From: Pirellula staleyi DSM 6068
Lineage (GTDB): Bacteria; Planctomycetota; Planctomycetia; Pirellulales; Pirellulaceae
NCBI GenBank assembly: GCA_000025185.1
Contig: CP001848.1
Coordinates: 3,930,001-3,962,000 of the forward strand
Direction of reading: 5' to 3'
DNA length: 32,000 nt
Program-made: the position numbers and the translations under genes
In this document: one piece after another, positions 12,883-32,000 of the stretch
Position numbering within the stretch: position 1 is the first letter of the stretch
Layout: the number at the start of each line of letters is the position of its first letter
The notes under the pieces: model-generated
The model's input: only the letters and a program-made list of their open reading frames with translations
What the model was told of the DNA's origin: nothing
Databases searched by the model: none

Positions 12883-12958
12883 AAATCTTCACTATTTGTG
12901 CCTCTGTTCCTGCTGTCGCCCCTGTTACCGACAGCGTGATGCCGGCGCTTCGTTCTCG
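12839..12958 (+). repeat. attC-like site (type A centre), right boundary uncertain
   Basis: GCGAACCAGACGC..GGGAGGCGGATTTAGAAATCTTCACTATTTGTGCC..CTGTCGCCCCTGTTACCGACAGCGTGATGCC..CGTTCTCGC parallels 6967-7058 (..CAGGCGGATTTGAAATAGACAATCTCTTGTCGCCGCCCTGTGAACGGTGACGTTCGCT). The right core could be GTGATGC (12936) or GTTCTCG (12952). Confidence 0.4.
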
Positions 12959-13787
12959 CTACCGCAAAATTTGGTTAGCCAAAAATCTCGAAACCCCCTC
13001 AGCGTGGTTTTTTCTCGTGAAATCACTCGGACTCACGTACTGGCAAAAGACCATTCTGAGATCACTCAGGAATGCTGTCCTGCTCTATCTCATCGTCGTG
13101 ATCGCCATGTTTCTGTTACAGCGTCAGTTACTTTACTTCCCTTCGCATGATCCACCGAAGGGTGATTTGAAGCCTTGGCTGGCCGAGGATCGTTTGATCG
13201 GTTTTTGCCGCGAGGTTGCTGAGCCAAAGACGATCTGGCTGATGATGCATGGCAATGCGGGGCAGGCTGCCGATCGCGACTATGTACTCGAGCGATTGGC
13301 TGATAGCGACTCGCTTTACGTCCTAGAATACCCGGGCTATGGCGCCCGGGAAGGTAAACCGACGAAGCTGTCCATTGATCTCGCGGCGGCTGAGGCCTTT
13401 CGAGTTCTTCGGGCTAAGAACCCGAGCAGACCCATTTGTGTACTGGGAGAGTCACTCGGGAGCGGTCCCGCGTGCATGCTGACCCACGAGCCATCCCCTC
13501 CCGAGAAAGTGTTCCTGGCTGTTCCCTACGACACACTACCCAATGTGGCAGCGAAGCGTTTCTTTTTTCTTCCTGTACGTCTCTTAATGCTGGACAGGTG
13601 GAATAACGTGCAGGCACTACAAGGCTACGAAGGTGAGGTCGAGATTCTAGCCGCATCCGAGGATGAAGTGATCCCACCGACCCACGCCGAAGCCTTGGCA
13701 CGTCAAGTTCCTCATGCAAAGTTGATCCGCATACGTGGTGGCCATAATGATTGGTCCTTCGATCGCTCCATTCAGATTCGAAGGTAG
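12939..13787 (+). CDS. Cassette 13: membrane-anchored alpha/beta-hydrolase, paralog of 10833-11693 (about 282 aa)
   Basis: TM segment AVLLYLIVVIAMFLL, then HGNAGQ, LEYPGYGAREG, GESLGSG and ..ASEDEVIP..GGHND. The start could be ATG 12939, or GTG near 13016 if the attC core is the one at 12952. Confidence 0.8.
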   Translation: MPALRSRYRKIWLAKNLETPSAWFFLVKSLGLTYWQKTILRSLRNAVLLYLIVVIAMFLLQRQLLYFPSHDPPKGDLKPWLAEDRLIGFCREVAEPKTIWLMMHGNAGQAADRDYVLERLADSDSLYVLEYPGYGAREGKPTKLSIDLAAAEAFRVLRAKNPSRPICVLGESLGSGPACMLTHEPSPPEKVFLAVPYDTLPNVAAKRFFFLPVRLLMLDRWNNVQALQGYEGEVEILAASEDEVIPPTHAEALARQVPHAKLIRIRGGHNDWSFDRSIQIRR

Positions 13788-15382: not shown

Positions 15383-16633
15383 TTAGGGAGTGGGGTGGGG
15401 GGAGGTTGCGAGGGATTCGGCGAGGCGGCGCTGTTTGCGATAGTGGCTGGGAGTGACGCCGACTTCGCGGCAGAAGACTTCGTAGAGTTGCATGCGGTCG
15501 CTAAATCCGACGTCGCGGGCGATCTCGGTGAGGCTGCGATCGGACTGGATGAGTTCTCGCTTGGCCCGTTCGGTTCTGACGCGGCGAATTTCGTCGGCTA
15601 TCGGACGGTCGAGGACCTGCCGAAAGCGTCGCTGCAAGGTGCGGGTGTGGACGTGCAGCGACTCGGCGACCGTGTCGCAGTTGATGGGCAAATGCGAGTG
15701 GGAGGCAATGAACTCGAGGGCTTGGGCGATGAGCTTGTCTTCGACGGCGTAGAAATCGGTTGATTCGCGAACGATCATCCCTTGGGGTGGCAGGATCAGA
15801 TGCGGTGGCTGTGACGGTTTGCGTGCTGATGGTTGGAGGTGGCTCAGCCGCTTTTTTGATCGCGACCGGAGCGACTGCTGATGCATCAGTTGGTCGAGCA
15901 GCCGCGCAGCTTCGTAGCCGATGCGCTCGTAGCCGATTTCCACGCTGCTGAGCGACGGACGTGGGTGGGTGCAGAGGGTTTCTTCGTTCATGCCCGCGAC
16001 GATCGCCACATCGCCAGGAATGCGCCAGCCGCGCCTCCGGCAGAGCTGTACGACAAGGCGGCCCATCACCTCGGTGCAGATCGAGACACCGATGGGGGGC
16101 TGCCAGTGGTCCATCCAGGAGTCGATCAGCCGCTCCGTTTTCTTCCAGGTGGCATAGCTGCGACTCGGCACCAGCGGCAGTCGCTCGACGATGCAGGGAA
16201 AGCCCGCCTCGCTCACCACGGCGCGAAACGCGGCTGCTTGTTCGAGCTGAGCTTTATCTTTGCGGGTGAGCACGGCAAATTGGCGGAGGCCGCGCGCGAG
16301 GAGATGTTCGGCTTCGAGACGTCCGACAGCAGCGGCATCGTGAAACACCCCGGGGAGGGGGGCGCGAACGGGGGAATTGAACCAAATGTTGACCAGCGGA
16401 ATGGGGAAGCGGCTTTGCAGTTCGGCGAGTCGAGCCGGAATGCGTCCGATCACACCGTCGTAGAGGCGGGCCTGTTTCGGCTGTTCGAGCAGATGCTCGG
16501 CGACGTACTCGTCGATGACCGATTCCCATCCCTTTTCGGCGGCATAACGCTGCGTCCCTGCAAAAATATCGGCGTGCCGCTTAAGGGGCCAGCGAAGATC
16601 GAGCATGATCGCCACGCGGCGAGATTTAGGCAT
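15383..16633 (-). CDS. AraC-family transcriptional regulator with a periplasmic-binding-protein-like sensor domain (XylR-like), about 416 aa
   Basis: The C-terminus has an AraC HTH (..TLQRRFRQVLDRPIADEIRRVRTERAKRELIQSDRSLTEIARDVGFSDRMQLYEVFCREVGVTPSHYRK). The N-terminal and middle parts are a LacI/PBP-like fold (RVAIMLDL..). Track ORF 15383-16807 extends upstream, but M at 16633 (MPKSRRVAIMLDL) leaves a 172-bp divergent promoter region, so I prefer it. Confidence 0.85.
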   Translation of the reverse strand: MPKSRRVAIMLDLRWPLKRHADIFAGTQRYAAEKGWESVIDEYVAEHLLEQPKQARLYDGVIGRIPARLAELQSRFPIPLVNIWFNSPVRAPLPGVFHDAAAVGRLEAEHLLARGLRQFAVLTRKDKAQLEQAAAFRAVVSEAGFPCIVERLPLVPSRSYATWKKTERLIDSWMDHWQPPIGVSICTEVMGRLVVQLCRRRGWRIPGDVAIVAGMNEETLCTHPRPSLSSVEIGYERIGYEAARLLDQLMHQQSLRSRSKKRLSHLQPSARKPSQPPHLILPPQGMIVRESTDFYAVEDKLIAQALEFIASHSHLPINCDTVAESLHVHTRTLQRRFRQVLDRPIADEIRRVRTERAKRELIQSDRSLTEIARDVGFSDRMQLYEVFCREVGVTPSHYRKQRRLAESLATSPHPTP

Positions 16634-16805
16634 CGGGCACCTGTCGTCAAAACCTGCTTTTTTGTCGTAAAAACAATCTTTTGGCTCACTATACTTGGAA
16701 AGAGGTCGGTCGAGCAACTTAACGCTGCGTTTAGGGCTTGAGTGAACCACTGTTGCCTCCGCTGAGCGGTCGGCTCTGCTGCATACGAAAAGTAGGCTCT
16801 TGGCC

Positions 16806-19334
16806 ATGCGATTTTTAAGCCCTCTGTACGCCTGTTGTTTGATCTTGATCGGTTCGCTCGCGCAGGCCGAGAGCTCGCTGGCGATTCCCGAGCATGTCAG
16901 CCAGACTTTGGCGCGCTTCTGCGGCGATTGTCATGCAGCCGAGACAAGCGAAACCGACGTTCGTCTCGATGGACTGGGGAAGCTTGATCGCGGCGATCAA
17001 CTCGAACTGCTCAACAAGATGCAGGATCAGTTGTTTTTTGGGACGATGCCCCCGGGAGATGCGGAGCAAATTCCCGACGGGGAGCGAGCGCCGCTTGTCA
17101 GCTGGCTGCGAACCGAATTGCGTAAAGCCAACGCTTCGCGGCTCGATGAGAAGCTGCGTTATCCGGCGTATGGCAACTATGTCGAACACGAGCTGCTGTT
17201 CCGTCCGACGGCAACAGCCGCCGCGTACACACCAGCGCGACGCTGGCTCGTAAGTCCGCAAATTTTTACGGAGCGCGTGCTCGATGTTTTTCGGCTCGAA
17301 GGGCGCGAGCGCGAGGGGATGCGGCAGCAGGGATTTGTCGGGGTAACCAATCCGTTGGTGCTGCCTGATCAATCGGGTGTGCGCTACTACGATCATGGAA
17401 CGCTCGACGGCGGCACGCTGCTGGTGATGCTCGGCAACGCCCAGTGGATCGCCGACAAGCAAATCCGCGCGGCGCGGGTGAAGCATGGCGAGCTCGCTGC
17501 CGATGAGTTCGAAAATATGCGAGACCGCTGGTATCCCAAAATCACTCCCGCGCCACTCGAGGCGATTATCCTGAGCGACGCACCACCCACCGACGAGCAA
17601 CTGGTGGCCGCTATCGAATCGCAGTTTGCTTGTGCGTTGCAGCGCTCTCCCACCGAGGCTGAACAGCGCCGGTATCTCGAACTTGCGCGTGAAGCGATTC
17701 AGCTCGGAGGAAACACGGAAGGCTTACGGCAGATGCTGGTGACGGTGCTGCTGGAGTCGGAGTTTCTTTATCGACTCGAATTCGGCGCTGGCAAACCCGA
17801 TGAGCATGGTCGACAGCTCCTTGCGCCGCAGGAAGCTGCGTTCGCCATTGCCTATGGACTGGGGGACCGTGGTCCCGACGCCACTTTGCTGAAGGCTGCG
17901 AGTGAAGATCGGCTGAAGACGCGCGACGACTTTCGCCGCGAGGTCGAGCGTTTGCTGGCCGATCCTAACTATTATCGAGCCCCGGTCGATCCGTCGCTGA
18001 GTGGCAACCATATCAAGTCGCATGTGGTGTCGCATCCCAAGCTCGTCCGGTTTTTCCGCGAGTTCTTCGGCTATACCGGCGCGCTGAAGGTGTTTAAAGA
18101 TAGTGCCCGCAGCGGCGGCTATTATCAAAACCCCGATCGCGGACATACCGGCACTCCCGGCTGGCTGATTCAAGAAGCGGACGAACTGGTGATCTGGTGT
18201 TTGGATCGGGATCAGCAAGTGTTTGAAACGTTGCTGACGACCGACCAATATTTTGTCTACCACAATCTTGATACCAAGTCGGGGAAGGCATGCATTGCCG
18301 AGTGGCAGAAGGTGTACGAGGCGCTGCAAAACACACCCTGGAAAACCGATCCCGAACTGGTGATGAGCGAGCATCGAGAGTTGCTCGGGGCGGCGAAGAT
18401 CATCGACAGCCGCGAGAAAGAGCTGTGGAAGCAAAAGCGATCGTTCCTGTCGTACATGTATTATTTTCAGGACACGTTTGGTCGCGGAACGATCCCGTTC
18501 ACGCGGGGGCCGTTCACGCACGGCTATTCCTACACGCATGCCGCGAGCTACAGCCTCCCTCCGTTTCCGGGACGCGAGCGCTATATCGGTGTTGAGCTCG
18601 ATCGATACAAAGAGCCCGTGGATAAACCGATCTACTGGAGCTATCCGGTCGAGCAGCCGTTCACAATCGCGCATCGCAAAGGTCTACTGACGCATCCCGC
18701 CTGGCTCGTCGCGCACTCGAGCAATTTTCATACAGACCCGATTCGTCGCGGGCGCTGGATTCGCGAAAAGCTGCTTGCTGGCCGCGTGCCCGATGTGCCG
18801 ATCACGGTCGATGCGCAGGTCCCCGACGATCCGCACAAGACGCTGCGCGAGCGGGTCGAACAAGTGACGCAAAAAGCGGAATGCTGGAAGTGTCATCAGC
18901 ACATGAACCCGCTGGGTCTCCCCTTTGAAAGCTTCGACGATTTTGGCCGATTTCGTACCGAAGAGAGTCGCGAGCATCCCGAGAATTTGATTCGTAAAGG
19001 CAACGGCAAAGATCTACCCGATCTCTACGAAGTGAGTCCGATTAATACACGCGGCGCACTCAGCGGCACGCGCGACCCGCAGCTCGATGGCGAGGTGCAA
19101 GATGCTTTCGAAATGATCGATCGGCTCGCACGCTCCGAGCGCGTTCGTCAGTCGATCATTCGGCATGCGTTCCGCTTTTTCCTCGGCCGTAATGAAATGC
19201 CTTCCGATGCGCAAACGCTGCTCGATGCCGATCAGGCCTACCTTGCCAGTGGCGGCAGTTTTCGCGCTGTCGTCGTCTCGCTCTTAACCTCCGATTCCTT
19301 CATCTATCGCAAGCCCAGTCAGGATCAACCATGA
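16806..19334 (+). CDS. DUF1592/DUF1595/DUF1588/DUF1585-family protein with an N-terminal planctomycete cytochrome-c-like CxxCH motif (842 aa)
   Basis: Signal peptide MRFLSPLYACCLILIGSLAQA. Further motifs: FCGDCHAAE, THPAWLVAHSSNFHTDPIRRGRWIREKLLAG..P and ECWKCHQHMNPLGLPFESFDDFGRFR. Start taken at ATG 16806; the track uses TTG 16800. Confidence 0.9.
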   Translation: MRFLSPLYACCLILIGSLAQAESSLAIPEHVSQTLARFCGDCHAAETSETDVRLDGLGKLDRGDQLELLNKMQDQLFFGTMPPGDAEQIPDGERAPLVSWLRTELRKANASRLDEKLRYPAYGNYVEHELLFRPTATAAAYTPARRWLVSPQIFTERVLDVFRLEGREREGMRQQGFVGVTNPLVLPDQSGVRYYDHGTLDGGTLLVMLGNAQWIADKQIRAARVKHGELAADEFENMRDRWYPKITPAPLEAIILSDAPPTDEQLVAAIESQFACALQRSPTEAEQRRYLELAREAIQLGGNTEGLRQMLVTVLLESEFLYRLEFGAGKPDEHGRQLLAPQEAAFAIAYGLGDRGPDATLLKAASEDRLKTRDDFRREVERLLADPNYYRAPVDPSLSGNHIKSHVVSHPKLVRFFREFFGYTGALKVFKDSARSGGYYQNPDRGHTGTPGWLIQEADELVIWCLDRDQQVFETLLTTDQYFVYHNLDTKSGKACIAEWQKVYEALQNTPWKTDPELVMSEHRELLGAAKIIDSREKELWKQKRSFLSYMYYFQDTFGRGTIPFTRGPFTHGYSYTHAASYSLPPFPGRERYIGVELDRYKEPVDKPIYWSYPVEQPFTIAHRKGLLTHPAWLVAHSSNFHTDPIRRGRWIREKLLAGRVPDVPITVDAQVPDDPHKTLRERVEQVTQKAECWKCHQHMNPLGLPFESFDDFGRFRTEESREHPENLIRKGNGKDLPDLYEVSPINTRGALSGTRDPQLDGEVQDAFEMIDRLARSERVRQSIIRHAFRFFLGRNEMPSDAQTLLDADQAYLASGGSFRAVVVSLLTSDSFIYRKPSQDQP

Positions 19335-20752
19335 CGACGACTCGTCGAACCTTCGCCCAGCAAGCGCTGCTCGGAACCGGTGCCCTGGCTCTGCTTCCTT
19401 CGGCTCTGCTCCCCTCCCCGCTGCAGGCCGAAGCTCAGCCGACCAAGCCCCCGATGCGCTTCATCTTTCTGCATCGCGGGAACGGTCTGTTTCCCCATGT
19501 GCTCGTGCCACCGACATTCTCCCCCGAGCTGAAGGAGAAGGAGCAAAAGAAAGAGGCGTTCGAAGTCGATCTCGATCAGCACGACCTTCCCGACTGGCTC
19601 CGTCCGCTGTCGGCTCACAAAGAGAATTTGACCCTCCTGCAAGGGCTTTCTGGCAAGATGTGCACCACCGGGCATCACTCGTGGTGCTCGTCGCTGGGAG
19701 TGTTTAAAGCCAACGAGCGCGTCAGTTCGATTCGCTGGGCAACGGTCGATTTTGAACTGGCGCGGCTCTTTCCATCGCCCCTCGAGCATATCGAGCTGGC
19801 CTGTTTTCCACTCGATGGCGGCAATCCGCGCGGCAGCCTCAATGGCATTGCGCAAGGCTTTTCAGCTCGCGGTCCTCAGCAGCCGAACTATGCGTTCGGT
19901 TCGCCGCGCGTGGCGCTGCAGGAACTGTTTAAGTCGGTTTCGACCAATGCCAACGAGCAGGTGAAGTATCAGTTGCAGCGCAAGGTGCTCGAGTTTGTCT
20001 CGCAGAGCGAGCAATCACGCCTGCAAGCGGTCACTGGTGTCGAGCAGGCCAAGATCGAGCGCTACTCCGATGCGGTCGAAGCGATTCGGGAGCGCGACCG
20101 GCAAGTCGATCTGATGACCGATGCCTTGCGTCAGCACATACCCAAACTGGACGACAAATATTTAAGCGACGAGATGACGACGTACGACCGACAGGCTGGC
20201 CATACGGAAGTTTTATTGTCCGCGCTTATCTCTGGTCTGACCAACGTCGTCGCTTTCACGCTCGATGAGCTGGGACATCATTACACCGGTATTCCAGGGC
20301 TCGAAAACGAGAAAGTCAACATGCACGATGTGGGGCATGGCAAGATGATCGGCGGTGTTGCCGCTGAAGTGATCCGCGCCCGGTCCGAAGAGTATCACAT
20401 GACGCTGGTAGACCGGATCGTGACCCGCCTTAAGAGTGTCCGCGAAGGCAATGGGACAATGTTCGACAACACGATGCTGCTCTACTTCCCCGACAGTGGC
20501 GAGACCCATCACAGCCTCGGACTCGAATTTCCTTTTGTCGTCGTTTCGGGCCGCAATTGTCCGCTGAACATCGCCCGCCGCTACATTCGACTCCCAGGCT
20601 ACGGCCAGCCAGGACACAAGACCCTCGGCAACTGGTACACGTCGATTCTCAACGCCTATGGCAACCCTATCGCGCACTATGGCGATCTCGACGCTGGGCT
20701 CGCCAAATTCCATATCGACCAAAAAGGCCCCATCCCGCAGCTGATGAGCTAA
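19331..20752 (+). CDS. DUF1552 domain protein with a Tat-type signal (473 aa), partner of the DUF1592-family gene
   Basis: MTTTRRTFAQQALLGTGALALLP is twin-arginine-like. An ATGA start/stop overlap with the upstream gene (19331-19334) indicates translational coupling. The size and pairing are typical of DUF1552. Confidence 0.9.
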   Translation: MTTTRRTFAQQALLGTGALALLPSALLPSPLQAEAQPTKPPMRFIFLHRGNGLFPHVLVPPTFSPELKEKEQKKEAFEVDLDQHDLPDWLRPLSAHKENLTLLQGLSGKMCTTGHHSWCSSLGVFKANERVSSIRWATVDFELARLFPSPLEHIELACFPLDGGNPRGSLNGIAQGFSARGPQQPNYAFGSPRVALQELFKSVSTNANEQVKYQLQRKVLEFVSQSEQSRLQAVTGVEQAKIERYSDAVEAIRERDRQVDLMTDALRQHIPKLDDKYLSDEMTTYDRQAGHTEVLLSALISGLTNVVAFTLDELGHHYTGIPGLENEKVNMHDVGHGKMIGGVAAEVIRARSEEYHMTLVDRIVTRLKSVREGNGTMFDNTMLLYFPDSGETHHSLGLEFPFVVVSGRNCPLNIARRYIRLPGYGQPGHKTLGNWYTSILNAYGNPIAHYGDLDAGLAKFHIDQKGPIPQLMS

Positions 20753-22517: not shown

Positions 22518-22704
22518 TGCTCGATTGTGGGACGGATGAGTAGTTCGCGCGGGGAGTGGCTCGCGAAATTTGATATCGCATTTTTCCGCAGCTTCCTACA
22601 ATGAGCCCCGTTGTTGCGGTCTCTCCCAGATCGTCTCGCGCCAAACATCTTGCGTCACGAGACCTCCCCGCGACACGTATCCATTTCACTCGAGGAATGC
22701 TGCG

Positions 22705-23964
22705 ATGACTAAAGCTTGTTATGCGCTGCTGCTGATTCTGCTGCTGGGCAATTTGGCGTCGGCCGAGAACTGGCCTGCTTGGCGCGGGCCGACGGGGCAG
22801 GGGTTCAGCGAAGAGATAAACATTCCGCTCACCTGGGGACCGGACGAGAACGTGAAGTGGAAAGTTCCCCTCGAGAATCCAGGGAACTCGACGCCGGTGA
22901 TTTGGGGAGACAAGCTGTTTTTGACGCAGGCGAACAAAGGTGGTTCGCAGCGCAGTTTGCTCTGCCTGGCACGCGAAGGTGGCAAACTGCTGTGGCAAAA
23001 AGATGTGGCTTATGTCGAGAAAGAACGGAACTGGAACGAAACGTGGTACTGCAATGCTTCACCGGTGCTCGATGGTGAGCGCGTGATTGTTTGCTTCGGT
23101 TCTGCAGGGCTCTATTGCTTCGATTTCGACGGGAAAGAGCTCTGGAAACGGACCGATCTTGGAATGTGGGAACATCCGTTTGGTAACGGCGCGTCGCCTA
23201 TTCTCTTCGGCGATCTAGTGATTCAGTGGTGTGGTCCCAACGAATCGAAGGGCCGCAACTTTTTGCTGGCAGTCAAGAAACAAAACGGGCAAACCGTTTG
23301 GGAAACCGAGCGCACGGAAGGGTCGTGGTCGACGCCGCTGATCGCGCAAGTTGATGGCAAGGATCAACTGCTGCTGGGCCACTCGCGCGATGTGAAATCG
23401 GCGCCGGAGGAGAAGACTGGTTTTCTCTATGGCTTTGATCCAGGAACTGGCGCCGAGATTTGGAAGTGCCAAGGTCTGAACAGCTACTGCTATGCCTCGC
23501 CACTCTATAGCGATGGCATTGCGGTTGGGATGTCGGGCTATGGAGGTTCGGCCTTAGCGGTGAAGTTAGAGGGTCCGGGTGATATCACGGCGAGTCGGCT
23601 CTGGCTTCATCCACGCAACACGCAACGCGTTGGATCGGGGCTGATCGTGAAGGGCTATGTGTATGTGGTCGACGAGAATGGAGTGCCGCGCTGCTACGAC
23701 CTCAAGACAGGTGAAGAGCAATGGAAGATTGAAAAGCGGCCTGGCAGCGGCGCGTCGACTTGGGGCTCGATGGTGCATGTCGACGGTCGGCTGTACGTGC
23801 TGATGCGCAATGGTGAAACGTTGGTGATGGCTGCCAAGCCGACGTTTGAGCTGCTGGCGGTGAACAAGCTGGGAGGCTCGACGAACTCGTCGCTGGCGAT
23901 CTCGAGCGAGCAGGTCTTCGTTCGGACGTTCACCCATCTCTGGTGCATCGAGGGGAAGCGGTAG
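22705..23964 (+). CDS. Secreted PQQ-like (BamB/YVTN-type) beta-propeller repeat protein, 419 aa
   Basis: The internal start MTKACYALLLILLLGNLASAENWPAWRGPTGQG gives a signal peptide plus the ENWPxWRG motif common to this family. Repeated ..G.l.c.d..tG...W.. blades follow. The track ORF begins at 22570, inside the repeat region. Confidence 0.85.
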   Translation: MTKACYALLLILLLGNLASAENWPAWRGPTGQGFSEEINIPLTWGPDENVKWKVPLENPGNSTPVIWGDKLFLTQANKGGSQRSLLCLAREGGKLLWQKDVAYVEKERNWNETWYCNASPVLDGERVIVCFGSAGLYCFDFDGKELWKRTDLGMWEHPFGNGASPILFGDLVIQWCGPNESKGRNFLLAVKKQNGQTVWETERTEGSWSTPLIAQVDGKDQLLLGHSRDVKSAPEEKTGFLYGFDPGTGAEIWKCQGLNSYCYASPLYSDGIAVGMSGYGGSALAVKLEGPGDITASRLWLHPRNTQRVGSGLIVKGYVYVVDENGVPRCYDLKTGEEQWKIEKRPGSGASTWGSMVHVDGRLYVLMRNGETLVMAAKPTFELLAVNKLGGSTNSSLAISSEQVFVRTFTHLWCIEGKR

Positions 23965-24540: not shown

Positions 24541-27500
24541 ATGCGTCGTGCTAGTGCTTCGTCGAAGAAATCAGGGCGAGCCATGCATCGCCAGAATCGG
24601 CGTGTCTTTTTCGAGTCGCTCGAAGATCGCAGCATGATGGCGACAATTCCGTACATCGTTCCGCAGGGAACGGTGGGGAATCAACCATTCACTGGTTCGC
24701 TCGGGATGGACTTTGATGTCACCGCGCCGATCACGGTGACGAATCTCGGCGCGTTTGATAGCGGTTCGGATGGGATCAACGGCACGATCAATGTGCGTCT
24801 CTACGATCGCACAAATCCAGGGACTCCACTGGCCACAGCATCGCTCTCTGGAACGTCACAGCAGCTTGTCGGCGGCAGCCGATTTTTATCGCTCCTCACG
24901 CCGATCCCTTTGCCCGCCGGTTTTCAAGGTCGCATTGTGACCGATGGCTACAGCGCTGCGGAACCCAACGGAAATAGTGCGACACCGGTTTGGACCACCA
25001 ATGGTGGTGGCGCAATGAACTTTGTTGGGGTGGGAACATTCGATACTTTGACAAACGTGTATCCCACGAATAGCGAAGGTACCCCTGTTAATCGTTATGC
25101 AGCAGGGACCTTTGCTTTCGTTCCGCAAGCGATCACGACCGCTTACGTCGAAGACTCGTGGAGCGCCTTTTCGCCAGGGCATGTGATTGCCGATGCCGAC
25201 GCCGGTACGACTGGCAATCAGCCGGCAGTGATTGGAGTCGATGCCTTTGCGAGCATCTCCACCGCGCTTGCTGCTGTCCCTGCCAATGGCACGGTGATTG
25301 TGAACGACGGTACCTATGCCGAAGCCGTGACCATGAGTGGCACGAAGACGCTGGAGATCACCGGTCCCAACGGCGCGCAGTCGGTAGCCATTAACTCGCT
25401 CATTTCAGCGGTGGGGCAGAACGTCATTATCGAAGGGACATCGACATTGACTGTCGGTGACGCATCGAACAGTTCGATTGCGGGTGTGATCTCTGGCAGC
25501 GGAAATCTTGCGAAAAATGGTGGCGGCTCGCTGACCCTCTCGAATATCAACACCTACACCGGTACCACCAACATTATTGCTGGTACGTTGTCGGTGACGG
25601 GGCAACTTTCGAACTCTACCGATGTGACGGTCGGTGCTGCCGGTGTTTACAGCGTGGCTGCGAGCGACGTGATCGATGGGCTCGCTGGAACGGGCTCGGT
25701 TTTGCTGGGAACCAACACGCTGACGGTGGGTGGCGGCAATATCGCTTCAGCCAATTTTGGAGGTGTTATCAGCGGAAGTGGCGGCGTTACGAAAGTTGGT
25801 AGCGGTACGCAAACTTTTTCGGGCGCGAACAACTACACCGGAATCACCAACATTTCGGCGGGCATACTGACCGCTGCACATCCCACTGCGCTCGGATCGA
25901 CAGTCGCGGGCACAGTGATTAGCAACGGTGCTTCGCTGGGACTTTCGGGCAACATTGCGCTGGCTGCAGAAGCGATTTCGGCCGTAGGATCGGGCGTCGG
26001 TGGACTCGGCGCGATTCGCAACTTGTCGGGCAACAACAGCGTGGCAGGCGCCGTCACCATGCAGCTCGCACAGCAGCTGCGCACGCCGCTGACCACTGCC
26101 ACCTCCAGTTTTTCGCAAGGAGGTTTCACCCCTGCAGCGCTAATCGATAACAACTTCAATCTCAATTCTTTTGGCTGGGCGAATGCAGGTAATGCTGGTG
26201 GTTCGAATGCTGTGTTCGAAACCGGAACGAATCTCAATCCGGCTGGCATTCCGACGACCATCGATTTCTCGATCTTGAGTGGTGGCTATGGTCAGCACAC
26301 CATCGGCCGATTCAAAATCTATGCGACGACCGACGATCGCTCGCTTTTTGCCGATGGAGTGATCAACGGCGGTGATGTCACAGCGAACTGGATCGACATT
26401 ACGCCAGCGATTGTCACCTCGGCCAACGGCGCGACGCTCACGATCCTCGGGGATAACTCGGTTCGTGCCTCGGGAGCCAGTCCTGAGAGCGATACCTACA
26501 CGATTCGCGCAGTCACCTCGCTCGCGAATATCACTGGCTTCCGTCTCGAGACGATCAAAGACGCCTCGTTCCCAAGCAGCGGTCCTGGTCGCGCTGCGAA
26601 CGGCAATTATGTCATCGTGGAGTTCAGCGCGAGTGTGGCATCCGAACTGACGATCGGCAGTGATGCAGGTTCGTCGCTACAGATGCTCGGCACGGTCCAC
26701 AATCCATTCTCCGAGGGAACTGTTTCGCTGGTGGGGGCTGGCAATATCGGCTTCTCGTCGACAAGTGGCATCACGCAAACCAGCGGCGTCACCGGTGTGA
26801 GCAAGTCGGGAACAGGAACGGTTACGAATGCAGGTGCGCTCAATAATTTTGCAGGTGTTTTGAGTGTTTCGGAAGGTGTGTACGTTGCGGCGCACGCATC
26901 GGCTGTCGGCGCGTCGACTGGGACGACAGTCATCAACAGTGGCGCGACTCTCACCCTCTCGGGCGGCATCACGATCACTGGCGAAACCATTACGGTCAAT
27001 GGCAACGGAGCGGCTGGCACGCTCGGCGCACTGACGAGCGCGGCTGGGAACAACAGCATCGATGCTACTAGTCAGATTCAGGCCGCTCCGGCGATCACGC
27101 AGTTCAGCGTTGGAAGCACCGGCGGAACTTTCACGATTAGCGCGCCGATTGACATGCACTACGCGCGGCTGGTGGTGAATGGCGATGGCAACACCGCACT
27201 CAGTGGTGCCATCAGCGCTACGCTGCCGACCGAACCCTCGCTCGCAAATCTCAATTCACTCCCCACCGGAAACTACGAGTTTGAGGTTGGTGGTCAAACG
27301 GTGAGTGTGCGTGTCGAAAACGATGGTGTGAACTCCTGGCTGCTGGTCGGTCGCGGTCGCAATGGTTGGGAGTTCGACAACGATGGCCAGCAAGTGGCTG
27401 CTGCGGTGAACAGTGGTCTCGGCACCAACGCTGCGTTTGCTCCTGCTGCTTACTCGGCTTCGCTGATCAACGATATTCTTGGCCAGAGCGGACTTTCGAT

Positions 27501-30500
27501 GTCGAACGTCGAAGTACGCATCCGCCGCGCTCAAGATGCAGCAGGAACCGTCTATCAAGAGAATCGCTGGCGCGATTGGCCGATCACCCAGTGGTCGTGG
27601 AACTTTTCGAATCCGGGTACCAATAACAACACGGGGGGCGTGAATGTCACCCGCGAGATCGTGTCGGGGCTGGGAAGTCCGCTCACCTATGCCAGCAACA
27701 CGCGCGACTCAGGAGAGGCGGATGGGCGCCGCATTTTCACTTGGGCCTGGGATGGTCACGGAAGTCAGCGTGGCTTTTCCTACGGAAGCTCGATCGGACT
27801 TGTCGGAGGCCAGAGCGTTACGAATTTCCTGTGGGAATTGGGAAGCGAGAATCACGAAATTCCTTACTCCGAAGTCTACATTCGCACGCTCGCTGCACCT
27901 CCAGTGCAAGACAACAGCCTAATTAAGAATGGCACAGGGACGCTCACACTTGGTGGCGCCAATACCTTCGCAGGAACTACCACCGTCAACGCCGGAACCG
28001 TGGTTGCCGCTCATAGTAGCGCGCTTGGAACAACCGCCGGTGGAACTGTGGTGAGTGGCGGCGCAACACTCGCCCTCAGCGGTGGAATCACCATCGATGG
28101 TGAAGCGATTCAAATCGCAGGAAGTGGCGCTGCAGGTCAAGCTGGCGCACTGGTGAACCTCGCGGGCGCGAACACACTCGGCGCAACTACCAGCATTCTC
28201 GTTCCAGCGAATGTTCCGAATCGACTCGATGTGACTGCGGTCGGCGGTTCGCTGAGTATCGCCAGCCCGATTAATTTGCAGTACGCACGGCTGGTCGTTG
28301 GTGGCGCTGGGGACGTGGATATCTCGGGCGATATTTCGTCGACCCTCCCCACCTCACCAACCCTGGCGACACTCGGTCTCTTTCCAACTGGTGACTACAC
28401 CATCACCGCAGCTGGGCAAACGTTTAATGCTCGTATTCAAAACGATGGTACAACGTCGTGGCTCCTCATCGGTCGTGGTCGCGATGGCTGGCAGTTTGAT
28501 ACCGATGGGCAAGGACTCGTCAGCGATGTGAATCAGAATCTGGGTACCGTCGCCGGTTTTGCTCCAGCGGCTTACAGCGATGCGATCGTCAACGCACTTC
28601 TCGCGCAGGTTGGCACGAACAATACAGGTGCTGAACTTCGTATCCTGCGTGCGACCGACACCGCCGGGATCAATCCTTATCAAGAGACACGCTGGTTCAA
28701 TTTTGCCACGCCGAATTTTACCTTCGATTTCGATGTAGGCAGCAGCGGCATCCCGATGACATCGACGGTCTATGCCTCGTCGATTAACGGCATAAGTGGT
28801 CCACGCCCTACCAACACGCGCGATTCGAATCCTCCTTTTGGTAATGACGCTACTCGCATCTTCACCTGGGCGTGGGGTGGTCATAACAATCGCCAAGGTT
28901 TCTCGTATGGCACCACCATCTCGGGAATCGACAACAACAGCCCGACGTCCTACTTGTGGGAATTCACTACCGAAAATCACGCCCTCGCCTACTCGGAAGT
29001 GAGCATCCGCACTTCGACGCAAATCACCGTCGACAGCGGCGTGACTAAAACTGGAACCGGCTCACTCACCCTCAGCGGTTCCAACACCTACACCGGCACG
29101 ACGGTGGTGAATCAAGGTACACTGATCGCCTCCGATAGTAGCGCACTCGGAACAGCCGCCGCTGGAACCGAAGTGAACGAAGGTGGAACCCTCGCGCTCA
29201 CTGGTGGCATCACGATCGCGGGCGAATCACTCATCGTTCGTCCCGGCACATCGGTTGGCAACGATCACCTCGTTAACCTCGCAGGTGCCAACACCTGGAC
29301 AGGCCCAATTGATTGGCAAAATCCTCTTGCCACCACATCCACCGGTCTCTTCACTGGCGGCGACATCGGGGAAGGACTCGACCTTACCGGAACCTTCCCT
29401 TACGCGATCAATTTCGGCGGCACCGCGACCGGACCTGTGCAAGGGACAACTTTCACTAGTTCCGAAGGAGCAGGGACGCCCGGACTCAGCTACAGCATTC
29501 CTTCGGTGATTAACAGCTGGTTTGCTCCCGACTATGGAGTGTCGGCCGATGATAACAATCTCGAAGCGATCACTCAGTCCATCCGTTACGGCGGTCTAGT
29601 GAACTTCACGCTCGCGAATTTGGTTCCCGGAAGTCGCTACAAGTTGCAGCTGATTATCGACGAATCCAACGGCTACACATTGCGTGGTTCGGATCTCTTT
29701 ATCGACGGTCAGCGGGCCCTGACTGGTTACGGAACTGCAGCCTCCAGTACGGTTGCGATTGGTGGCGTGATCACGCACGAGTTCACTGCGACCACCTCGA
29801 CGGTGCGTGTGCTGCTCGACGGTAACTCGGCCACCGGTTTCTCCGATCGTAATCCGATTCTCAATGCCGCGACGCTCGAACTTCTCTCGGCAGCAGCACC
29901 CACGAGCATGCGCATTCGATCCGATGCCGGTCAGCTCACACTCGGCGGCGAGATCACCGTCGGAGCAGCCAATGGCGACATCGTTGTTGGCGGAGCAGGC
30001 AATGTTGTTGCCACGGGAACCATCGTTCGGCAAAACTACAGCGATGCGGTTACCGCTCTTTCGCCACTCAACTACTGGCGTCTCAATGATGCCGTGCTTC
30101 CCACCGCTCTCGACGAGATGGGGACTCGTAACGGCACCTATGTCAATGTTCCTGCAGGCAACCTCAACCGCCCCGGCGCTTTTCCTGGCGATTTGAACAA
30201 CTCGGTGCAATTCAACACCAGCGGAACGTTTGCGAATCAAAATCGCTATGTTTCGATTCCTAGCGACGCTGCTCTCAACGCCACTCTGCAAGGCAACTAC
30301 ACCGCGCAGATGTGGATCTATAAAGATGGTGAATCGGCCGACTGGCAACGATTGTTTGGAAAAGGTTTCGATCCCACTCGCACGTTTGGTCTCTTCGAAG
30401 AGGCTGGCGCACCTGGGCGCATTTTGTTCCAGGTCTACACATCGGGGGGCAATGTCAACCTAAACAGCACCGAGTCGCTTGCTGTGGGGCAGTGGCATCA

Positions 30501-32000
30501 CGTTGCAGTGACCAAAGATGGGAGCACCATTTCGCTCTACATCAACGGTAACCTCAGCGCGAGTACCACTTTGCCCGGCGTACCCGTGGTCGATGCAAGT
30601 CCGCTCACCATCGGCAAAGCTGCAACGATTCATCAAGACTTCCCTGGTCGCATCGATGAGGTTGCTCTCTATGGATCGGCCCTCACCCGCGCTCAAATCG
30701 CCTCGCTCTATGCCGCAGGCGCTCCTGTCTACGCCAATGGTCTCACCAAGACTGGGGCTGGCACACTCACACTCACTGCAAACAACCAGTACATCGGTGC
30801 CACGTCGGTGCTTGATGGGACTTTGCTGGTGAATAACGTGGCGGGATCGGGGACGGGGAGTGGTAACGTCACTGCTAGTGGCGATGCTGTCGTTGGTGGA
30901 ACAGGCGCTATCAGCGGCGCTCTGCTGATGACCGGAGTTTCCACCCTCTCGCCAGGCGCAAGCCCCGAGACTCTTGCTACCGGCAATTTGTCGCTTGGCA
31001 GTGGCACCACTTTCCTGGTGGAAATCGGTGGCACATCGCCGGGCAATGGCACCACGGGCTACGATCAAGTGAATGTCACCGGAACTGTGACCATCGCCAG
31101 TGGCGTGACGCTCGATCTGGACCAACTGCTTGCTTACAACGTCAGCAGCGCCTCGCTCACGAGCTTCACGATCATCAGCAACGATGGCACCGATGCTGTT
31201 GCCGGAACCTTTAGCGGGCTCGCTGAAGGTGCCAGCCTTAGCTACGCCGGTGGAACGCTCTACATCAGCTACGCTGGCGGTGATGGAAACGATGTCGTGC
31301 TGAGTAGTCAGCCGCTGATGCAAGGGACGTCGCTCGACGACACCTTCGTTGTCACCGGCGCGGGGAACATCTACACCGTCACCCGCACGAACTCGCTGGG
31401 CATAGTGACCGCGACCTACACCAATCCACCGGCCGGCATTTTGAATATTCTAGGCTCAGGTGGCGACGATACGCTGATTGTCGACAGCACGGGAACCAGC
31501 ACCGATCCGATCCCCTCGGGCGGTATCAACTACGACGGTCAATCGCAGACCATGAGTCTGCTGGGGGACATGCTCAGCATGCGTGGAACCACCGGTCAGG
31601 TAGCAACCTACCTGCCAAGCAGTTCCACACCTGGCGCTGGAACGATCACGATCGAAGACACGCTCGGGGCACCGCTGGGCGTGGTCACTTTCACGGGACT
31701 TGAGCCGGTAGATATCTCGGGATTTGCCGTTGCCAACGTCAATTTTCCGAATGCCAACGATGTCGTGGATATCATCAATGGCTTCGATGCAGCCACCGGC
31801 CTCACACCCGCGCTCATCGTAAGTGGCAACAGTGGTGGTGTAGCGTTCGAGCAGGTCCACCTCTTTAGCAACGTGCTGGTGAATATCAACACCTTTGATG
31901 GAGGCGGAAGCGACGGCGTCGATTCGGTCACCATCACGAGTGGTGCGAATGCGCATGCGAATGCGAACATCACGATTGATACGGGAGTGGGGGCCGATAC
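24541..32000 (+). CDS. Giant extracellular multidomain protein, 5' part (more than 2486 codons, open at the right edge). It carries autotransporter-associated beta-strand (PATR-type) repeats, lectin-like modules and a duplicated unknown domain.
   Basis: Absent from the ORF track because there is no stop in the window. The frame-1 reading from ATG 24541 (alternative ATG 24583) gives MRRASASSKKSGRAMHRQNRRVFFESLEDRSMMA, the planctomycete N-terminal LE.R motif. Many G(T/S)G.LTL.G.NTY.G.T.(V/I).(A/G)GTL repeats follow, and ..SYAGGDGNDVVL lies near 31290. Frame continuity was hand-checked at 24601, 26791, 27121-27900, 28261-29041 and 31981. No frame-1 ORF appears in the track anywhere in this span. 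Confidence 0.9.
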   Translation, partial: MRRASASSKKSGRAMHRQNRRVFFESLEDRSMMATIPYIVPQGTVGNQPFTGSLGMDFDVTAPITVTNLGAFDSGSDGINGTINVRLYDRTNPGTPLATASLSGTSQQLVGGSRFLSLLTPIPLPAGFQGRIVTDGYSAAEPNGNSATPVWTTNGGGAMNFVGVGTFDTLTNVYPTNSEGTPVNRYAAGTFAFVPQAITTAYVEDSWSAFSPGHVIADADAGTTGNQPAVIGVDAFASISTALAAVPANGTVIVNDGTYAEAVTMSGTKTLEITGPNGAQSVAINSLISAVGQNVIIEGTSTLTVGDASNSSIAGVISGSGNLAKNGGGSLTLSNINTYTGTTNIIAGTLSVTGQLSNSTDVTVGAAGVYSVAASDVIDGLAGTGSVLLGTNTLTVGGGNIASANFGGVISGSGGVTKVGSGTQTFSGANNYTGITNISAGILTAAHPTALGSTVAGTVISNGASLGLSGNIALAAEAISAVGSGVGGLGAIRNLSGNNSVAGAVTMQLAQQLRTPLTTATSSFSQGGFTPAALIDNNFNLNSFGWANAGNAGGSNAVFETGTNLNPAGIPTTIDFSILSGGYGQHTIGRFKIYATTDDRSLFADGVINGGDVTANWIDITPAIVTSANGATLTILGDNSVRASGASPESDTYTIRAVTSLANITGFRLETIKDASFPSSGPGRAANGNYVIVEFSASVASELTIGSDAGSSLQMLGTVHNPFSEGTVSLVGAGNIGFSSTSGITQTSGVTGVSKSGTGTVTNAGALNNFAGVLSVSEGVYVAAHASAVGASTGTTVINSGATLTLSGGITITGETITVNGNGAAGTLGALTSAAGNNSIDATSQIQAAPAITQFSVGSTGGTFTISAPIDMHYARLVVNGDGNTALSGAISATLPTEPSLANLNSLPTGNYEFEVGGQTVSVRVENDGVNSWLLVGRGRNGWEFDNDGQQVAAAVNSGLGTNAAFAPAAYSASLINDILGQSGLSMSNVEVRIRRAQDAAGTVYQENRWRDWPITQWSWNFSNPGTNNNTGGVNVTREIVSGLGSPLTYASNTRDSGEADGRRIFTWAWDGHGSQRGFSYGSSIGLVGGQSVTNFLWELGSENHEIPYSEVYIRTLAAPPVQDNSLIKNGTGTLTLGGANTFAGTTTVNAGTVVAAHSSALGTTAGGTVVSGGATLALSGGITIDGEAIQIAGSGAAGQAGALVNLAGANTLGATTSILVPANVPNRLDVTAVGGSLSIASPINLQYARLVVGGAGDVDISGDISSTLPTSPTLATLGLFPTGDYTITAAGQTFNARIQNDGTTSWLLIGRGRDGWQFDTDGQGLVSDVNQNLGTVAGFAPAAYSDAIVNALLAQVGTNNTGAELRILRATDTAGINPYQETRWFNFATPNFTFDFDVGSSGIPMTSTVYASSINGISGPRPTNTRDSNPPFGNDATRIFTWAWGGHNNRQGFSYGTTISGIDNNSPTSYLWEFTTENHALAYSEVSIRTSTQITVDSGVTKTGTGSLTLSGSNTYTGTTVVNQGTLIASDSSALGTAAAGTEVNEGGTLALTGGITIAGESLIVRPGTSVGNDHLVNLAGANTWTGPIDWQNPLATTSTGLFTGGDIGEGLDLTGTFPYAINFGGTATGPVQGTTFTSSEGAGTPGLSYSIPSVINSWFAPDYGVSADDNNLEAITQSIRYGGLVNFTLANLVPGSRYKLQLIIDESNGYTLRGSDLFIDGQRALTGYGTAASSTVAIGGVITHEFTATTSTVRVLLDGNSATGFSDRNPILNAATLELLSAAAPTSMRIRSDAGQLTLGGEITVGAANGDIVVGGAGNVVATGTIVRQNYSDAVTALSPLNYWRLNDAVLPTALDEMGTRNGTYVNVPAGNLNRPGAFPGDLNNSVQFNTSGTFANQNRYVSIPSDAALNATLQGNYTAQMWIYKDGESADWQRLFGKGFDPTRTFGLFEEAGAPGRILFQVYTSGGNVNLNSTESLAVGQWHHVAVTKDGSTISLYINGNLSASTTLPGVPVVDASPLTIGKAATIHQDFPGRIDEVALYGSALTRAQIASLYAAGAPVYANGLTKTGAGTLTLTANNQYIGATSVLDGTLLVNNVAGSGTGSGNVTASGDAVVGGTGAISGALLMTGVSTLSPGASPETLATGNLSLGSGTTFLVEIGGTSPGNGTTGYDQVNVTGTVTIASGVTLDLDQLLAYNVSSASLTSFTIISNDGTDAVAGTFSGLAEGASLSYAGGTLYISYAGGDGNDVVLSSQPLMQGTSLDDTFVVTGAGNIYTVTRTNSLGIVTATYTNPPAGILNILGSGGDDTLIVDSTGTSTDPIPSGGINYDGQSQTMSLLGDMLSMRGTTGQVATYLPSSSTPGAGTITIEDTLGAPLGVVTFTGLEPVDISGFAVANVNFPNANDVVDIINGFDAATGLTPALIVSGNSGGVAFEQVHLFSNVLVNINTFDGGGSDGVDSVTITSGANAHANANITIDTGVGAD

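What the first reader, a model, noticed from the sequence alone, without database searches (positions are those of the whole stretch)
26797..29040. Diverged tandem duplication (period about 1,122-1,125 nt) inside the giant gene, each unit carrying an unassigned domain of about 250 aa
Units 26797-27918 and 27919-29040 are collinear. Each has a PATR-type block followed by a domain with strongly conserved landmarks. Unit 1 reads (I)D/N..YARLVV.G.G, LPT.P(S/T)LA.L, PTG(N/D)Y, ENDGVNSWLLVGRGRNGWEFDNDGQ, FAPAAYS, YQE.RW, NTRDS, RIFTWAWDGHGSQRGFSYG, FLWEL..ENHEIPYSEVYIRT. Unit 2 reads QNDGTTSWLLIGRGRDGWQFDTDGQ, FAPAAYS, RIFTWAWGGHNNRQGFSYG, YLWEF..ENHALAYSEVSIRT. The motif offsets between copies are 1122 nt (Y of YARLVV; W of WLL) and 1125 nt (FTWAW; YSEV). 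I do not recognise this domain as PATR, LamG, malectin, discoidin or FReD. The W-L-L-V-G-R-G-R-x-G-W-x-F stretch only faintly recalls fibrinogen-related lectins. A third unit starts at 29041 but switches to a different module.
Basis: seen in the sequence. Interest (0 to 1): 0.65.

Follow-up and report, generated by a model that had tools for sequence, protein, structure and literature searches.

The report
Duplicated cysteine-free fibrinogen-like domain
A giant surface protein of a planctomycete carries two old copies of an unannotated 215-residue module that is a very divergent bacterial relative of the fibrinogen-related lectin domain of animals, and it most likely serves as a ligand- or sugar-binding head on a stalk.

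Summary
Units 26797-27918 and 27919-29040 are collinear: 47% identity over 373 aa, E 4e-104, with motif offsets of 1116-1125 nt. Third codon positions are near saturation, and related Pirellulaceae proteins keep a d1-type and a d2-type copy. The duplication is therefore old and both copies are maintained.

Pfam, NCBIfam and PDB sequence searches give nothing for the domain, so it is unassigned in the libraries tested. However, the "faint" fibrinogen resemblance is real homology.

- Iterated profile searches link the domain over its full length to actinobacterial "fibrinogen-like YCDxxxxGGGW domain-containing proteins". Some of those relatives pass Pfam Fibrinogen_C.
- An AlphaFold model (pLDDT 91.8) finds only fibrinogen-related domains as its top 30 PDB matches. 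Foldseek probability is 0.75-1.00, but TM is only 0.32-0.45.
- Sequence similarity to animal domains is limited to the first ~45 residues.

The window copies have no cysteines and lack the CDM..GGGW motif. They carry their own conserved C-terminal signature.

The family has at least 427 clusters, mostly in Planctomycetota and Verrucomicrobiota. Members always look secreted or surface-exposed: PEP-CTERM proteins, giant adhesin-like proteins and one flagellin insert.

I read it as a lectin-like binding module. Function is inferred, not shown.

The parts
24583..32000 (+). Giant secreted or surface protein gene. It runs off the window; the full product is P0044, 3688 aa. The N-terminus is MHRQNRRVFFESLEDR, a planctomycete extracellular-type leader. 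The protein is built of PATR/beta-helix segments alternating with globular heads, and its C-terminus (outside the window) has GGxGxD-type repeats.
   Evidence: Frame open from 24412 to the window end. P0044 has no mismatch over the window part. Pfam finds PATR x5, Laminin_G_3 and a weak Planc_extracel match. NCBIfam finds autotrns_rpt x6.
26797..27918 (+). Unit 1 of the internal duplication: stalk segment plus FReD-like head.
   Evidence: 47% identity to unit 2 over 373 aa, E 4e-104. Motif offsets 1116-1125 nt.
27919..29040 (+). Unit 2 of the internal duplication. It starts with a bona fide PATR repeat at 27919-28005.
   Evidence: PATR E 5.8e-10 at residues 1-29. Collinear alignment with unit 1.
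26797..27246 (+). Gly/Thr/Ala-rich stalk segment of unit 1 (degenerate PATR plus presumed beta-helix turns).
   Evidence: Aligns with the PATR-containing segment of unit 2. It gets no Pfam hit of its own.
27247..27888 (+). FReD-like domain copy 1 (d1, about 214 aa, no cysteine). Landmarks: TGNY, WLLVGRGRNGWEFDNDGQ, FAPAAYS, VEVRIRRA, YQENRWR, NTRD, RIFTWAWDGH, GFSYG, FLWE, ENHEIPYSEVYIRT.
   Evidence: AlphaFold2 model m66b8ed1617c2: pLDDT 91.8, pTM 0.91. Top 30 Foldseek PDB matches are all FReDs. Family profile searches. Conservation map.
28369..29013 (+). FReD-like domain copy 2 (d2). It carries the same conserved landmarks, ending in YSEVSIRT.
   Evidence: Alignments A1 to A3. It keeps all residues that are invariant in alignment A1. 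Its closest relatives are the second copies of L001 and P0049.
29041..29127 (+). PATR repeat that opens the third unit. That unit's head is a different, unassigned module (about 29230-29960).
   Evidence: Best PATR stretch at residues 1501-1529 of the 24541-based translation. No Pfam hit for 29230-29960.
30241..30702 (+). Laminin_G_3 (concanavalin-like lectin/glucanase) head further along the same protein.
   Evidence: PF13385 E 4.5e-29 at residues 1901-2054.

Best explanation
Each unit is one 'stalk segment plus head' module of a giant planctomycete cell-surface protein. The head (27247-27888 and 28369-29013) is a very divergent, cysteine-free bacterial member of the fibrinogen-related domain (FReD) superfamily.

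What it keeps of the FReD:
- the N-terminal strand pair and the GGGW-T-V-I-Q-R-R-type core strand, here SWLLVGRGR;
- by my reading of the predicted secondary structure, a central sheet with flanking helices;
- the closing strand ending in IR(T/P).

What differs: the loop-rich C-terminal third, which holds the ligand pocket in animal FReDs, has been rebuilt. It has its own conserved aromatic/His/Arg signature: TRD, R.FTW.W..H, GF..G, F.WE, E.HA.PY.E..IR.

The two copies come from an old duplication. Both are kept under purifying selection, and the same d1-type and d2-type pair is found in related Pirellulaceae proteins.

Shown here: the duplication, the homology chain, the fold-level match, and the exclusively secreted or surface contexts.

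Inferred: the heads act as lectin-like binding modules for a glycan or another surface ligand. They would be held away from the cell on the PATR/beta-helix stalk next to LamG-type heads, giving the protein multivalent adhesion or substrate capture.
For: Duplication:
- establish it.
- d1 is closest to the first copies of L001 (62%) and P0049 (56%). d2 is closest to their second copies (57% each). d1 against d2 is 47%.
- Third codon positions are 37% identical against 63% for positions 1+2.

Homology:
- The profile search gives 113 proteins. Among them are actinobacterial 'fibrinogen-like YCDxxxxGGGW domain-containing proteins' matched over 81-93% of the domain at 25-37% identity.
- Those relatives hit NF040941 at 1e-18 to 1e-23.
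- Family members hit PF00147: P0031 33.3 bits and P0034 25.1 bits, against a cut-off of 22.
- The family profile hits intelectins, tenascin-R, angiopoietin-2 and FIBCD1 in the PDB over the N-terminal motif, down to E 1.3e-9.
- hhalign against 4 FReDs gives 91% probability.

Fold:
- Model pLDDT 91.8.
- Foldseek ranks 1-30 are all FReDs: ANGPTL3/4/6, FGL1, Ang2, tachylectin 5A, M-ficolin, MFAP4 and fibrinogen chains. Best E is 1.1e-4 and probability is 1.00 for ranks 1-12 and 0.75-0.99 for ranks 13-30. After rank 30 the probability is at most 0.13.

Context:
- Stand-alone homologues have a signal peptide plus PEP-CTERM.
- Fusions occur with NPCBM, TSP3, fn3, EGF and cadherin domains, and one copy is a flagellin insert.
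- Neighbouring genes encode Laminin_G_3, Lectin_C+PA14 and PEP-CTERM proteins.
- Orthologues interleave a LamG-like head between the two copies.
Against: - TM-scores to solved FReDs are only 0.32-0.45, with rmsd mostly 7-11 A. Only part of the fold superposes.
- Sequence and profile similarity to animal FReDs stops after about 45-55 residues.
- The window copies themselves hit neither PF00147 nor NF040941.
- They lack every FReD cysteine.
- They lack the FST.D.D.D / NCA / GGWW..C calcium and pocket motifs. I recall these motifs from memory and see them in alignment A4.
- No ligand, calcium site or binding activity was tested.
- The strong conservation of Arg/His/Glu would also fit an enzyme.
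Confidence: 0.72

Rival explanations
1. Chimeric or intelectin-style domain. Only the N-terminal ~50 residues are FReD-derived. The remaining ~165 residues would be an independent fold that Foldseek drags along. In that case the domain is effectively a new fold class with a FReD-like cap.
For: HMM and hhalign matches cover only 45-55 columns. TM is 0.32-0.45. The best PDB sequence hits for the motif are intelectins. From memory, intelectins themselves depart from the FReD fold after this motif.
Against: Most Foldseek alignments to FReDs span 237-282 columns, the whole query; three span only 125-145. They are exclusive for 30 ranks. No intelectin appears in the top 50. The C-terminal strand plus I-R-(P/T) ending parallels the FReD ending M-K-I-R-P seen in A4. 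The order of secondary structure elements (strand pair, core strand, helices, sheet strands, long loop region, final strand) fits the A/B/P layout as I recall it.
Confidence: 0.15
2. The domain is an enzyme, for example a polysaccharide-modifying or lytic activity, rather than a passive binding module.
For: Arg, His, Glu and Trp residues are near-invariant across the PVC clade (Planctomycetota, Verrucomicrobiota and relatives): GRGR, E.R..RA, YQE.RWR, TRD, R.FTW.W..H, E.HA.PY.E. Catalytic domains can also sit in flagellin variable regions (my own knowledge). One family member is a flagellin insert.
Against: No match to any catalytic family in Pfam, NCBIfam or the PDB. To my knowledge, all structurally related proteins are binding domains. 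Several of the conserved Arg residues (GRGR, the final IR) correspond to core positions that are also conserved in FReDs. In the giant proteins the domain alternates with LamG-type binding heads.
Confidence: 0.08
3. Structural spacer with no specific ligand. The heads would only add bulk or rigidity to a surface fibre, and the duplication would be neutral length variation.
For: Copy number varies between lineages, from 1 to at least 5, with recent lineage-specific duplications (L017 copies are 90% identical; L011 has 5 copies).
Against: Both window copies keep every residue invariant in alignment A1 despite saturated synonymous sites. The domain also exists as a stand-alone 270-aa PEP-CTERM protein, where a spacer role makes little sense.
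Confidence: 0.05

Closest known systems
Bacterial 'fibrinogen-like YCDxxxxGGGW domain-containing proteins' (NCBIfam NF040941, GGGWT_bact). These are mostly actinobacterial proteins of about 780 aa with a C-terminal DUF5122/Rax2-type beta-propeller.
   Same: They are homologous over essentially the whole domain: 81-93% of the query at 25-37% identity, with E down to 1e-67 against the family profile. They share the GRGR, AF.P, R..RA, QE, W.W, GF..G and P(F/Y).(Q/E)V.IR(P) landmarks.
   Different: The window copies have lost both cysteines and the YCD....GGGW motif; they read V.NDG..SWLL. They do not hit NF040941, whose 46-position model covers only that motif. The PVC clade has its own tightly conserved C-terminal signature. 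The partner domains differ: PATR/LamG/PEP-CTERM here, propeller there. I found no paper that characterises either group.
Animal fibrinogen-related domains (Pfam PF00147): ficolins, tachylectin 5A, angiopoietins and ANGPTLs, FGL1, MFAP4, tenascins, fibrinogen beta/gamma.
   Same: They are the only fold matches in the PDB, with Foldseek probability up to 1.00. The N-terminal strand pair plus core strand is recognisably homologous. The size is similar, about 215 aa, and both are extracellular.
   Different: TM is only 0.32-0.45. There are no disulfides. There is no detectable similarity in the B/P regions by sequence. The calcium and acetyl-pocket motifs are absent. The window copies fail PF00147.
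Intelectins / X-type lectins (for example 4WMY human intelectin-1, 4WMO XEEL, 7E1E).
   Same: They give the best PDB sequence matches to the family's N-terminal motif, E 1.3e-9 to 7e-7. They set the precedent of a FReD-like start followed by a strongly remodelled lectin body. That precedent is from my own knowledge.
   Different: No intelectin is among the top 50 fold matches. There is no similarity beyond the motif.

Membership tests
Fibrinogen-related domain (Pfam PF00147 Fibrinogen_C) | Sequence match to the Pfam model above its gathering score. | tested here: not met
   There is no PF00147 hit at E<=10 for either window copy or either whole unit. Relatives P0031 (33.3 bits) and P0034 (25.1 bits) pass the 22-bit cut-off, but only over profile positions 11-69 of 221.
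Fibrinogen-related domain (Pfam PF00147 Fibrinogen_C) | N-terminal signature C...G.Y.I......(Y/F)CDM..GGGWT with its cysteine pair. | tested here: not met
   The window copies read TGNYEFEVGGQTVSVRVENDGVNSWLLVGRGR and TGDYTITAAGQTFNARIQNDGTTSWLLIGRGR and contain no cysteine. The motif is intact in homologous clades of the same family. hhalign aligns the window stretch to it at 91% probability.
Fibrinogen-related domain superfamily (fold level) | Predicted or solved structure resembles FReDs specifically. | tested here: met
   The model has pLDDT 91.8. Foldseek PDB ranks 1-30 are all FReDs, with best E 1.1e-4. Probability is 1.00 for ranks 1-12 and 0.75-0.99 for ranks 13-30. Most alignments span 237-282 columns; three span 125-145. 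From rank 31 the probability is at most 0.13.
Fibrinogen-related domain superfamily (fold level) | Global superposition on a solved FReD at TM >= 0.5. | tested here: not met
   The best TM is 0.45 by query length (9q35, 2hod_C) and 0.45 by target length (1jc9, 6eua_C). rmsd is mostly 7-11 A.
Fibrinogen-related domain lectins (ficolin / tachylectin 5A type) | Calcium site and acetyl-group pocket in the P subdomain (FST.D.D.D, NCA, GGWW..C motifs and the local disulfide). | tested here: not met
   The profile-profile alignment stops after 45 columns. The window's C-terminal third has a different conserved signature and no cysteine. A three-dimensional equivalent could not be examined because no coordinates were available.
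NCBIfam NF040941 GGGWT_bact (fibrinogen-like YCDxxxxGGGW domain) | Match to the 46-position model above 30 bits. | tested here: not met
   Neither window domain, nor the window's 2486-residue part of the protein, hits the model at E<=1. Relatives P0140, P0188, P0031, P0235 and P0241 score 64-80 bits.
Intelectin / X-type lectin | Intelectin-specific body after the FReD-like start. | tested here: not met
   PDB profile hits to intelectins cover only query-profile positions 29-83. No intelectin is in the Foldseek top 50.
PATR (PF12951) stalk repeat | Pfam match at the start of each unit. | tested here: inconclusive
   Unit 2 (E 5.8e-10) and unit 3 pass. Unit 1's first 29 residues align to unit 2's PATR but give no Pfam hit.

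The most novel reading that the evidence does not exclude
The cysteine-free PVC-clade domain would be a distinct, widespread bacterial lectin family with its own rebuilt binding pocket. One speculative ligand class is algal or bacterial acidic or sulfated glycans.

Together with the actinobacterial YCD-GGGW clade, it would show that the fibrinogen-related/intelectin fold has a deep and diversified bacterial history, rather than being an animal invention sporadically transferred to bacteria. That would bear on the origin of a major animal innate-immunity lectin fold.
Probability: 0.3. Interest if true: 0.6.

Novelty: new variant of a known kind. Interest (0 to 1): 0.42.

Why it matters
The work gives a name and a confident model to a domain that Pfam, NCBIfam and PDB sequence searches leave blank. 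The domain recurs in at least 427 protein clusters at 50% identity. They include many giant surface proteins of Planctomycetota, Verrucomicrobiota and related phyla, whose heads are largely unannotated.

It also extends the bacterial branch of the fibrinogen-related superfamily to a disulfide-free form. That form sits on PEP-CTERM proteins, on adhesin-like giants and even in a flagellin.

If binding specificity were determined, it would help explain how these bacteria attach to particles, algae or other cells. It could also inform the debate on where animal FReD and intelectin lectins came from.

Tried and rejected
- Direct searches with the two domain segments gave nothing usable: Pfam at E<=10, NCBIfam at E<=1 and PDB sequences at E<=10. 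The few NCBIfam and Pfam rows (N4_RNAP_helical, DUF2625, Firmicu_CTERM, PRK14678) are far below their cut-offs. I treated them as noise.
- The first AlphaFold run used only 11 close homologues and was poor (pLDDT 54). I did not use it for fold search. Adding 84 more diverse homologues fixed this.
- Foldseek against viral structures gave nothing below E 1e-3. The best match was a Synechococcus phage 'sericin 1-like' protein at E 4e-3 with TM 0.36.
- Tandem Repeats Finder and blastn show no useful DNA-level repeat. The duplication is visible only in protein.
- Literature searches found no paper on this bacterial family: YCDxxxxGGGW, bacterial FReDs, and fibrinogen with Planctomycetes. The Doolittle 2012 FReD evolution paper is not held.
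- Gene neighbourhoods of four stand-alone or short homologues show no conserved operon. The only recurrence is lectin-like and PEP-CTERM neighbours.
None is supported by any search. LamG is a separate head elsewhere in the protein.


Full report
**1. The observation**

The region lies in one long open frame that is open from 24412 and runs off the window end. The encoded protein is identical, over the part in the window, to database protein P0044. P0044 is 3688 aa, starts at window 24583 with MHRQNRRVFFESLEDR, and ends outside the window in GGxGxD-type repeats.

Unit 1 (26797-27918) and unit 2 (27919-29040) align collinearly: 175/373 identities (47%), E 4e-104. The offsets are 1122 nt (YARLVV, WLLxGRGR, FAPAAYS), 1125 nt (FTWAW, YSEV, YQE.RW) and 1116 nt (NTRDS).

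The duplication is old.
- Codon positions 1+2 are 63% identical, but position 3 is only 37%.
- blastn sees a single 168-nt piece.
- Tandem Repeats Finder sees nothing, although its longest period in this run was 500.

Pfam PATR passes at the start of unit 2 and of the third unit (29041), but not of unit 1, whose block is degenerate.

**2. What the libraries say directly**

The two head domains give nothing in Pfam (E<=10), nothing credible in NCBIfam (E<=1), and nothing in a sequence search of the PDB (E<=10).

**3. Relatives**

A single-sequence search found only 10 proteins. Most are about 270-290 aa with an N-terminal signal peptide, the domain, and a C-terminal PEP-CTERM anchor. One is from Roseibacillus. 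A profile of these found 42 proteins. A profile that included the most distant ones found 113.

The exhaustive search of 1.84 billion representatives gave 427 clusters at E<=1e-3 and 164 at E<=1e-30. Many are proteins of 1000-6500 aa.

A scan of one genome per species found 323 stretches that encode a relative.
- Most of the 77 loci kept come from Planctomycetota (Pirellulaceae, Planctomycetaceae, Gemmataceae, Phycisphaera) and Verrucomicrobiota (Roseibacillus, Akkermansiaceae, Rubritalea, Luteolibacter).
- Others come from Kiritimatiellia, Victivallales and Omnitrophota.
- Some come from Alphaproteobacteria, Myxococcota, Bdellovibrionales and Actinomycetes.

**4. The link to fibrinogen-related domains**

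The distant members match over 81-93% of the domain at 25-37% identity. They are actinobacterial proteins of about 780 aa that NCBI names "fibrinogen-like YCDxxxxGGGW domain-containing protein".

In these proteins the stretch before GRGR reads SCWxIKQxxPxSxDGVYWLxTPxLxxPxQFYCDMTTDGGGWVLVGRGREGW.
- It hits NCBIfam NF040941 at 64-80 bits, but that model has only 46 positions.
- Family members P0031 and P0034 pass Pfam Fibrinogen_C (33.3 and 25.1 bits, cut-off 22) over profile positions 11-69.

The window's TGNYEFEVGGQTVSVRVENDGVNSWLLVGRGRNGWEF is the cysteine-free, degenerate version of that stretch.

A family profile searched against PDB sequences hits the following, always over the same 30-55 N-terminal positions:
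- intelectins: 7E1E at 1.3e-9, XEEL at 2.4e-9, human intelectin-1 at 1.9e-7;
- tenascin-R;
- angiopoietin-2;
- FIBCD1.

It aligns to the family profile with 91% probability over 45 columns. Beyond that point no sequence method sees similarity.

**5. Structure**

With 11 close sequences the AlphaFold model was poor, pLDDT 54. With 95 sequences it is confident: pLDDT 91.8, pTM 0.91, and only residues 132-135 fall below 50.

The order of secondary structure elements is:
- a strand pair (16-22, 25-33);
- a core strand (38-45, SWLLVGRG);
- helices (59-63, 79-88);
- sheet strands (96-103, 111-117, 141-148, 154-159);
- a long, mostly irregular region (160-215);
- a final strand (216-222, SEVYIRT).

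As I recall the FReD layout, this is the order expected for its A, B and P subdomains, with the last strand returning to the central sheet.

Foldseek against the PDB returns only FReDs for ranks 1-30: ANGPTL3, ANGPTL6, FGL1, angiopoietin-2, tachylectin 5A, M-ficolin, MFAP4, fibrinogen chains and ANGPTL4. The best E is 1.1e-4. Probability is 1.00 for ranks 1-12 and 0.75-0.99 for ranks 13-30. Most alignments span 237-282 columns. After rank 30 the list collapses to noise, with probability at most 0.13.

TM-scores, however, are only 0.32-0.45. No intelectin is in the top 50. My conclusion is a FReD-superfamily fold that has been strongly remodelled. The viral structure library adds nothing.

**6. 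What distinguishes the window's clade**

I split the 95-sequence alignment into 34 sequences without the CDM..GGGW motif (PVC-type: Planctomycetota, Verrucomicrobiota and relatives) and 61 with it.
- Both groups keep W.L.GRGR..W, AF, R..RA, G...QE, W, GF..G and P(Y/F).(E/Q)...R.
- Only the PVC-type group also conserves, at 80% or more, TRD, R.FTW.W..H, F.WE and E.HA.PY.E..IR in the loop-rich C-terminal third.

In animal FReDs that third holds the ligand pocket (my own knowledge). A conserved aromatic/His/Arg set there suggests a rebuilt but specific pocket. This is inference, because I had no coordinates to map it. The PVC loop GW.FD.DGQG is Asp-rich and could bind calcium. That is untested.

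**7. History of the duplication**

d1 is closest to the first copy in a Pirellulaceae MAG (L001, 62%) and in P0049 (56%). d2 is closest to their second copies (57% each). The two first copies are 68% identical to each other and the two second copies 73%. The duplication therefore predates the split of these lineages, and both copies have been kept.

In those orthologues the two copies are not adjacent. A unit of about 390 aa, made of a PATR repeat plus a LamG-like head by my reading of the sequence, lies between them. So the exact tandem arrangement in the window reflects loss or rearrangement of that unit.

Elsewhere duplication has recurred independently.
- L011 has five copies at about 1.68 kb spacing.
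- L017 has two copies that are 90% identical.

Among the 275 proteins in hand, 223 have a near-full-length domain: 213 have one copy, 9 have two and 1 has three.

**8. Context and likely role**

Every context is secreted or surface-exposed:
- PEP-CTERM proteins;
- giants with PATR, LamG, TSP3, cadherin, fn3, EGF or NPCBM domains;
- a flagellin with the domain in its variable region;
- neighbours encoding Laminin_G_3, Lectin_C+PA14 and PEP-CTERM proteins.

The window's upstream genes are typical planctomycete ones: a PSCyt3/PSD protein with a DUF1552 partner, a PQQ-type propeller, and an AraC-type regulator.

I therefore read the two heads as lectin-like binding modules displayed on a beta-helical stalk next to other binding heads. 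No ligand is shown. An enzymatic role cannot be excluded but has no support.

**9. Comparison and verdict**

The nearest named group is the uncharacterised bacterial YCDxxxxGGGW family. The nearest characterised group is the animal FReD lectins. The window's copies fail the sequence-defined membership tests (PF00147, NF040941, the cysteine motif, the calcium and pocket motifs). They pass the fold-specificity test and are linked by unbroken full-length homology through intermediates.

This is a new, disulfide-free variant of a known superfamily, not a categorically new domain. It is moderately interesting.
- It annotates a recurrent blank in giant proteins of the PVC phyla.
- It broadens the bacterial side of the FReD and intelectin story.

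Function remains to be tested.

Noticed in passing
P0185 (867 aa, metagenome), residues about 143-404: A flagellin (Flagellin_N at 14-140, flagellin C-terminus at 717-795) carries this FReD-like domain plus a cadherin domain in its variable region. That implies display of the domain on the flagellar filament.
   Followed up: partly
L001:6769-7941 (uncultured Pirellulaceae MAG) and P0049: Orthologues of the window's giant protein keep d1-type and d2-type copies in the same order. They have an extra unit of about 390 aa (PATR plus a LamG-like head, by my reading of the sequence) between them. The strict tandem in the window therefore looks like a secondary loss or rearrangement.
   Followed up: partly
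L011 (uncultured Planctomycetaceae MAG) 937-7590; L017 (Gemmataceae MAG) 3934-6747: L011 has five copies of the domain at about 1.68 kb spacing. L017 has two copies that are 90% identical. These are independent, lineage-specific amplifications.
   Followed up: partly
P0032 (495 aa, metagenome): P0032 has one family domain, then a laminin-type EGF, then a second FReD-like start (SGSYRITP...VYCDMTTDGGGYSFF). What follows looks to me like a C-type-lectin-like sequence. This is a different bacterial use of the same N-terminal motif.
   Followed up: no
window 27364-27393 and 28486-28515 (d1 residues 48-57 and the d2 equivalent): The conserved PVC-clade loop GW.FD.DGQG is Asp-rich and resembles DxDxDG-type calcium loops. 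It has no counterpart in the actinobacterial clade consensus.
   Followed up: no
window 26029-26580 and 29230-29960: Two further globular-looking modules of the giant protein have no Pfam match at E<=0.1. The N-terminal module 24640-25200 has only a weak DUF4082 match (E 1e-4, below cut-off).
   Followed up: partly
window 16800-19334 (+) and 19331-20752 (+): An overlapping gene pair typical of planctomycetes: a PSCyt3/PSD2/PSD4/PSD5 (DUF1588/1585/1592/1595) protein followed by a DUF1552 (HXXSHH) protein. The stand-alone homologue P0001 lies just downstream of the analogous PSCyt2/PSD1 plus DUF1501 pair (L078). This is probably coincidence, given how common I believe these pairs are.
   Followed up: no
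window 15383-16807 (-), 22570-23964 (+), 10833-11693 (+), 12936-13787 (+): These ORFs encode an AraC-type regulator with a periplasmic-binding-protein-like sensor domain, a PQQ_2/BamB-like beta-propeller protein directly upstream of the giant gene, and two alpha/beta-hydrolase ORFs.
   Followed up: no
window 24541-24582: An in-frame ATG lies 14 codons upstream of the database start (MRRASASSKKSGRA-MHRQNRR...). The true start of the giant gene is ambiguous between 24541 and 24583.
   Followed up: no
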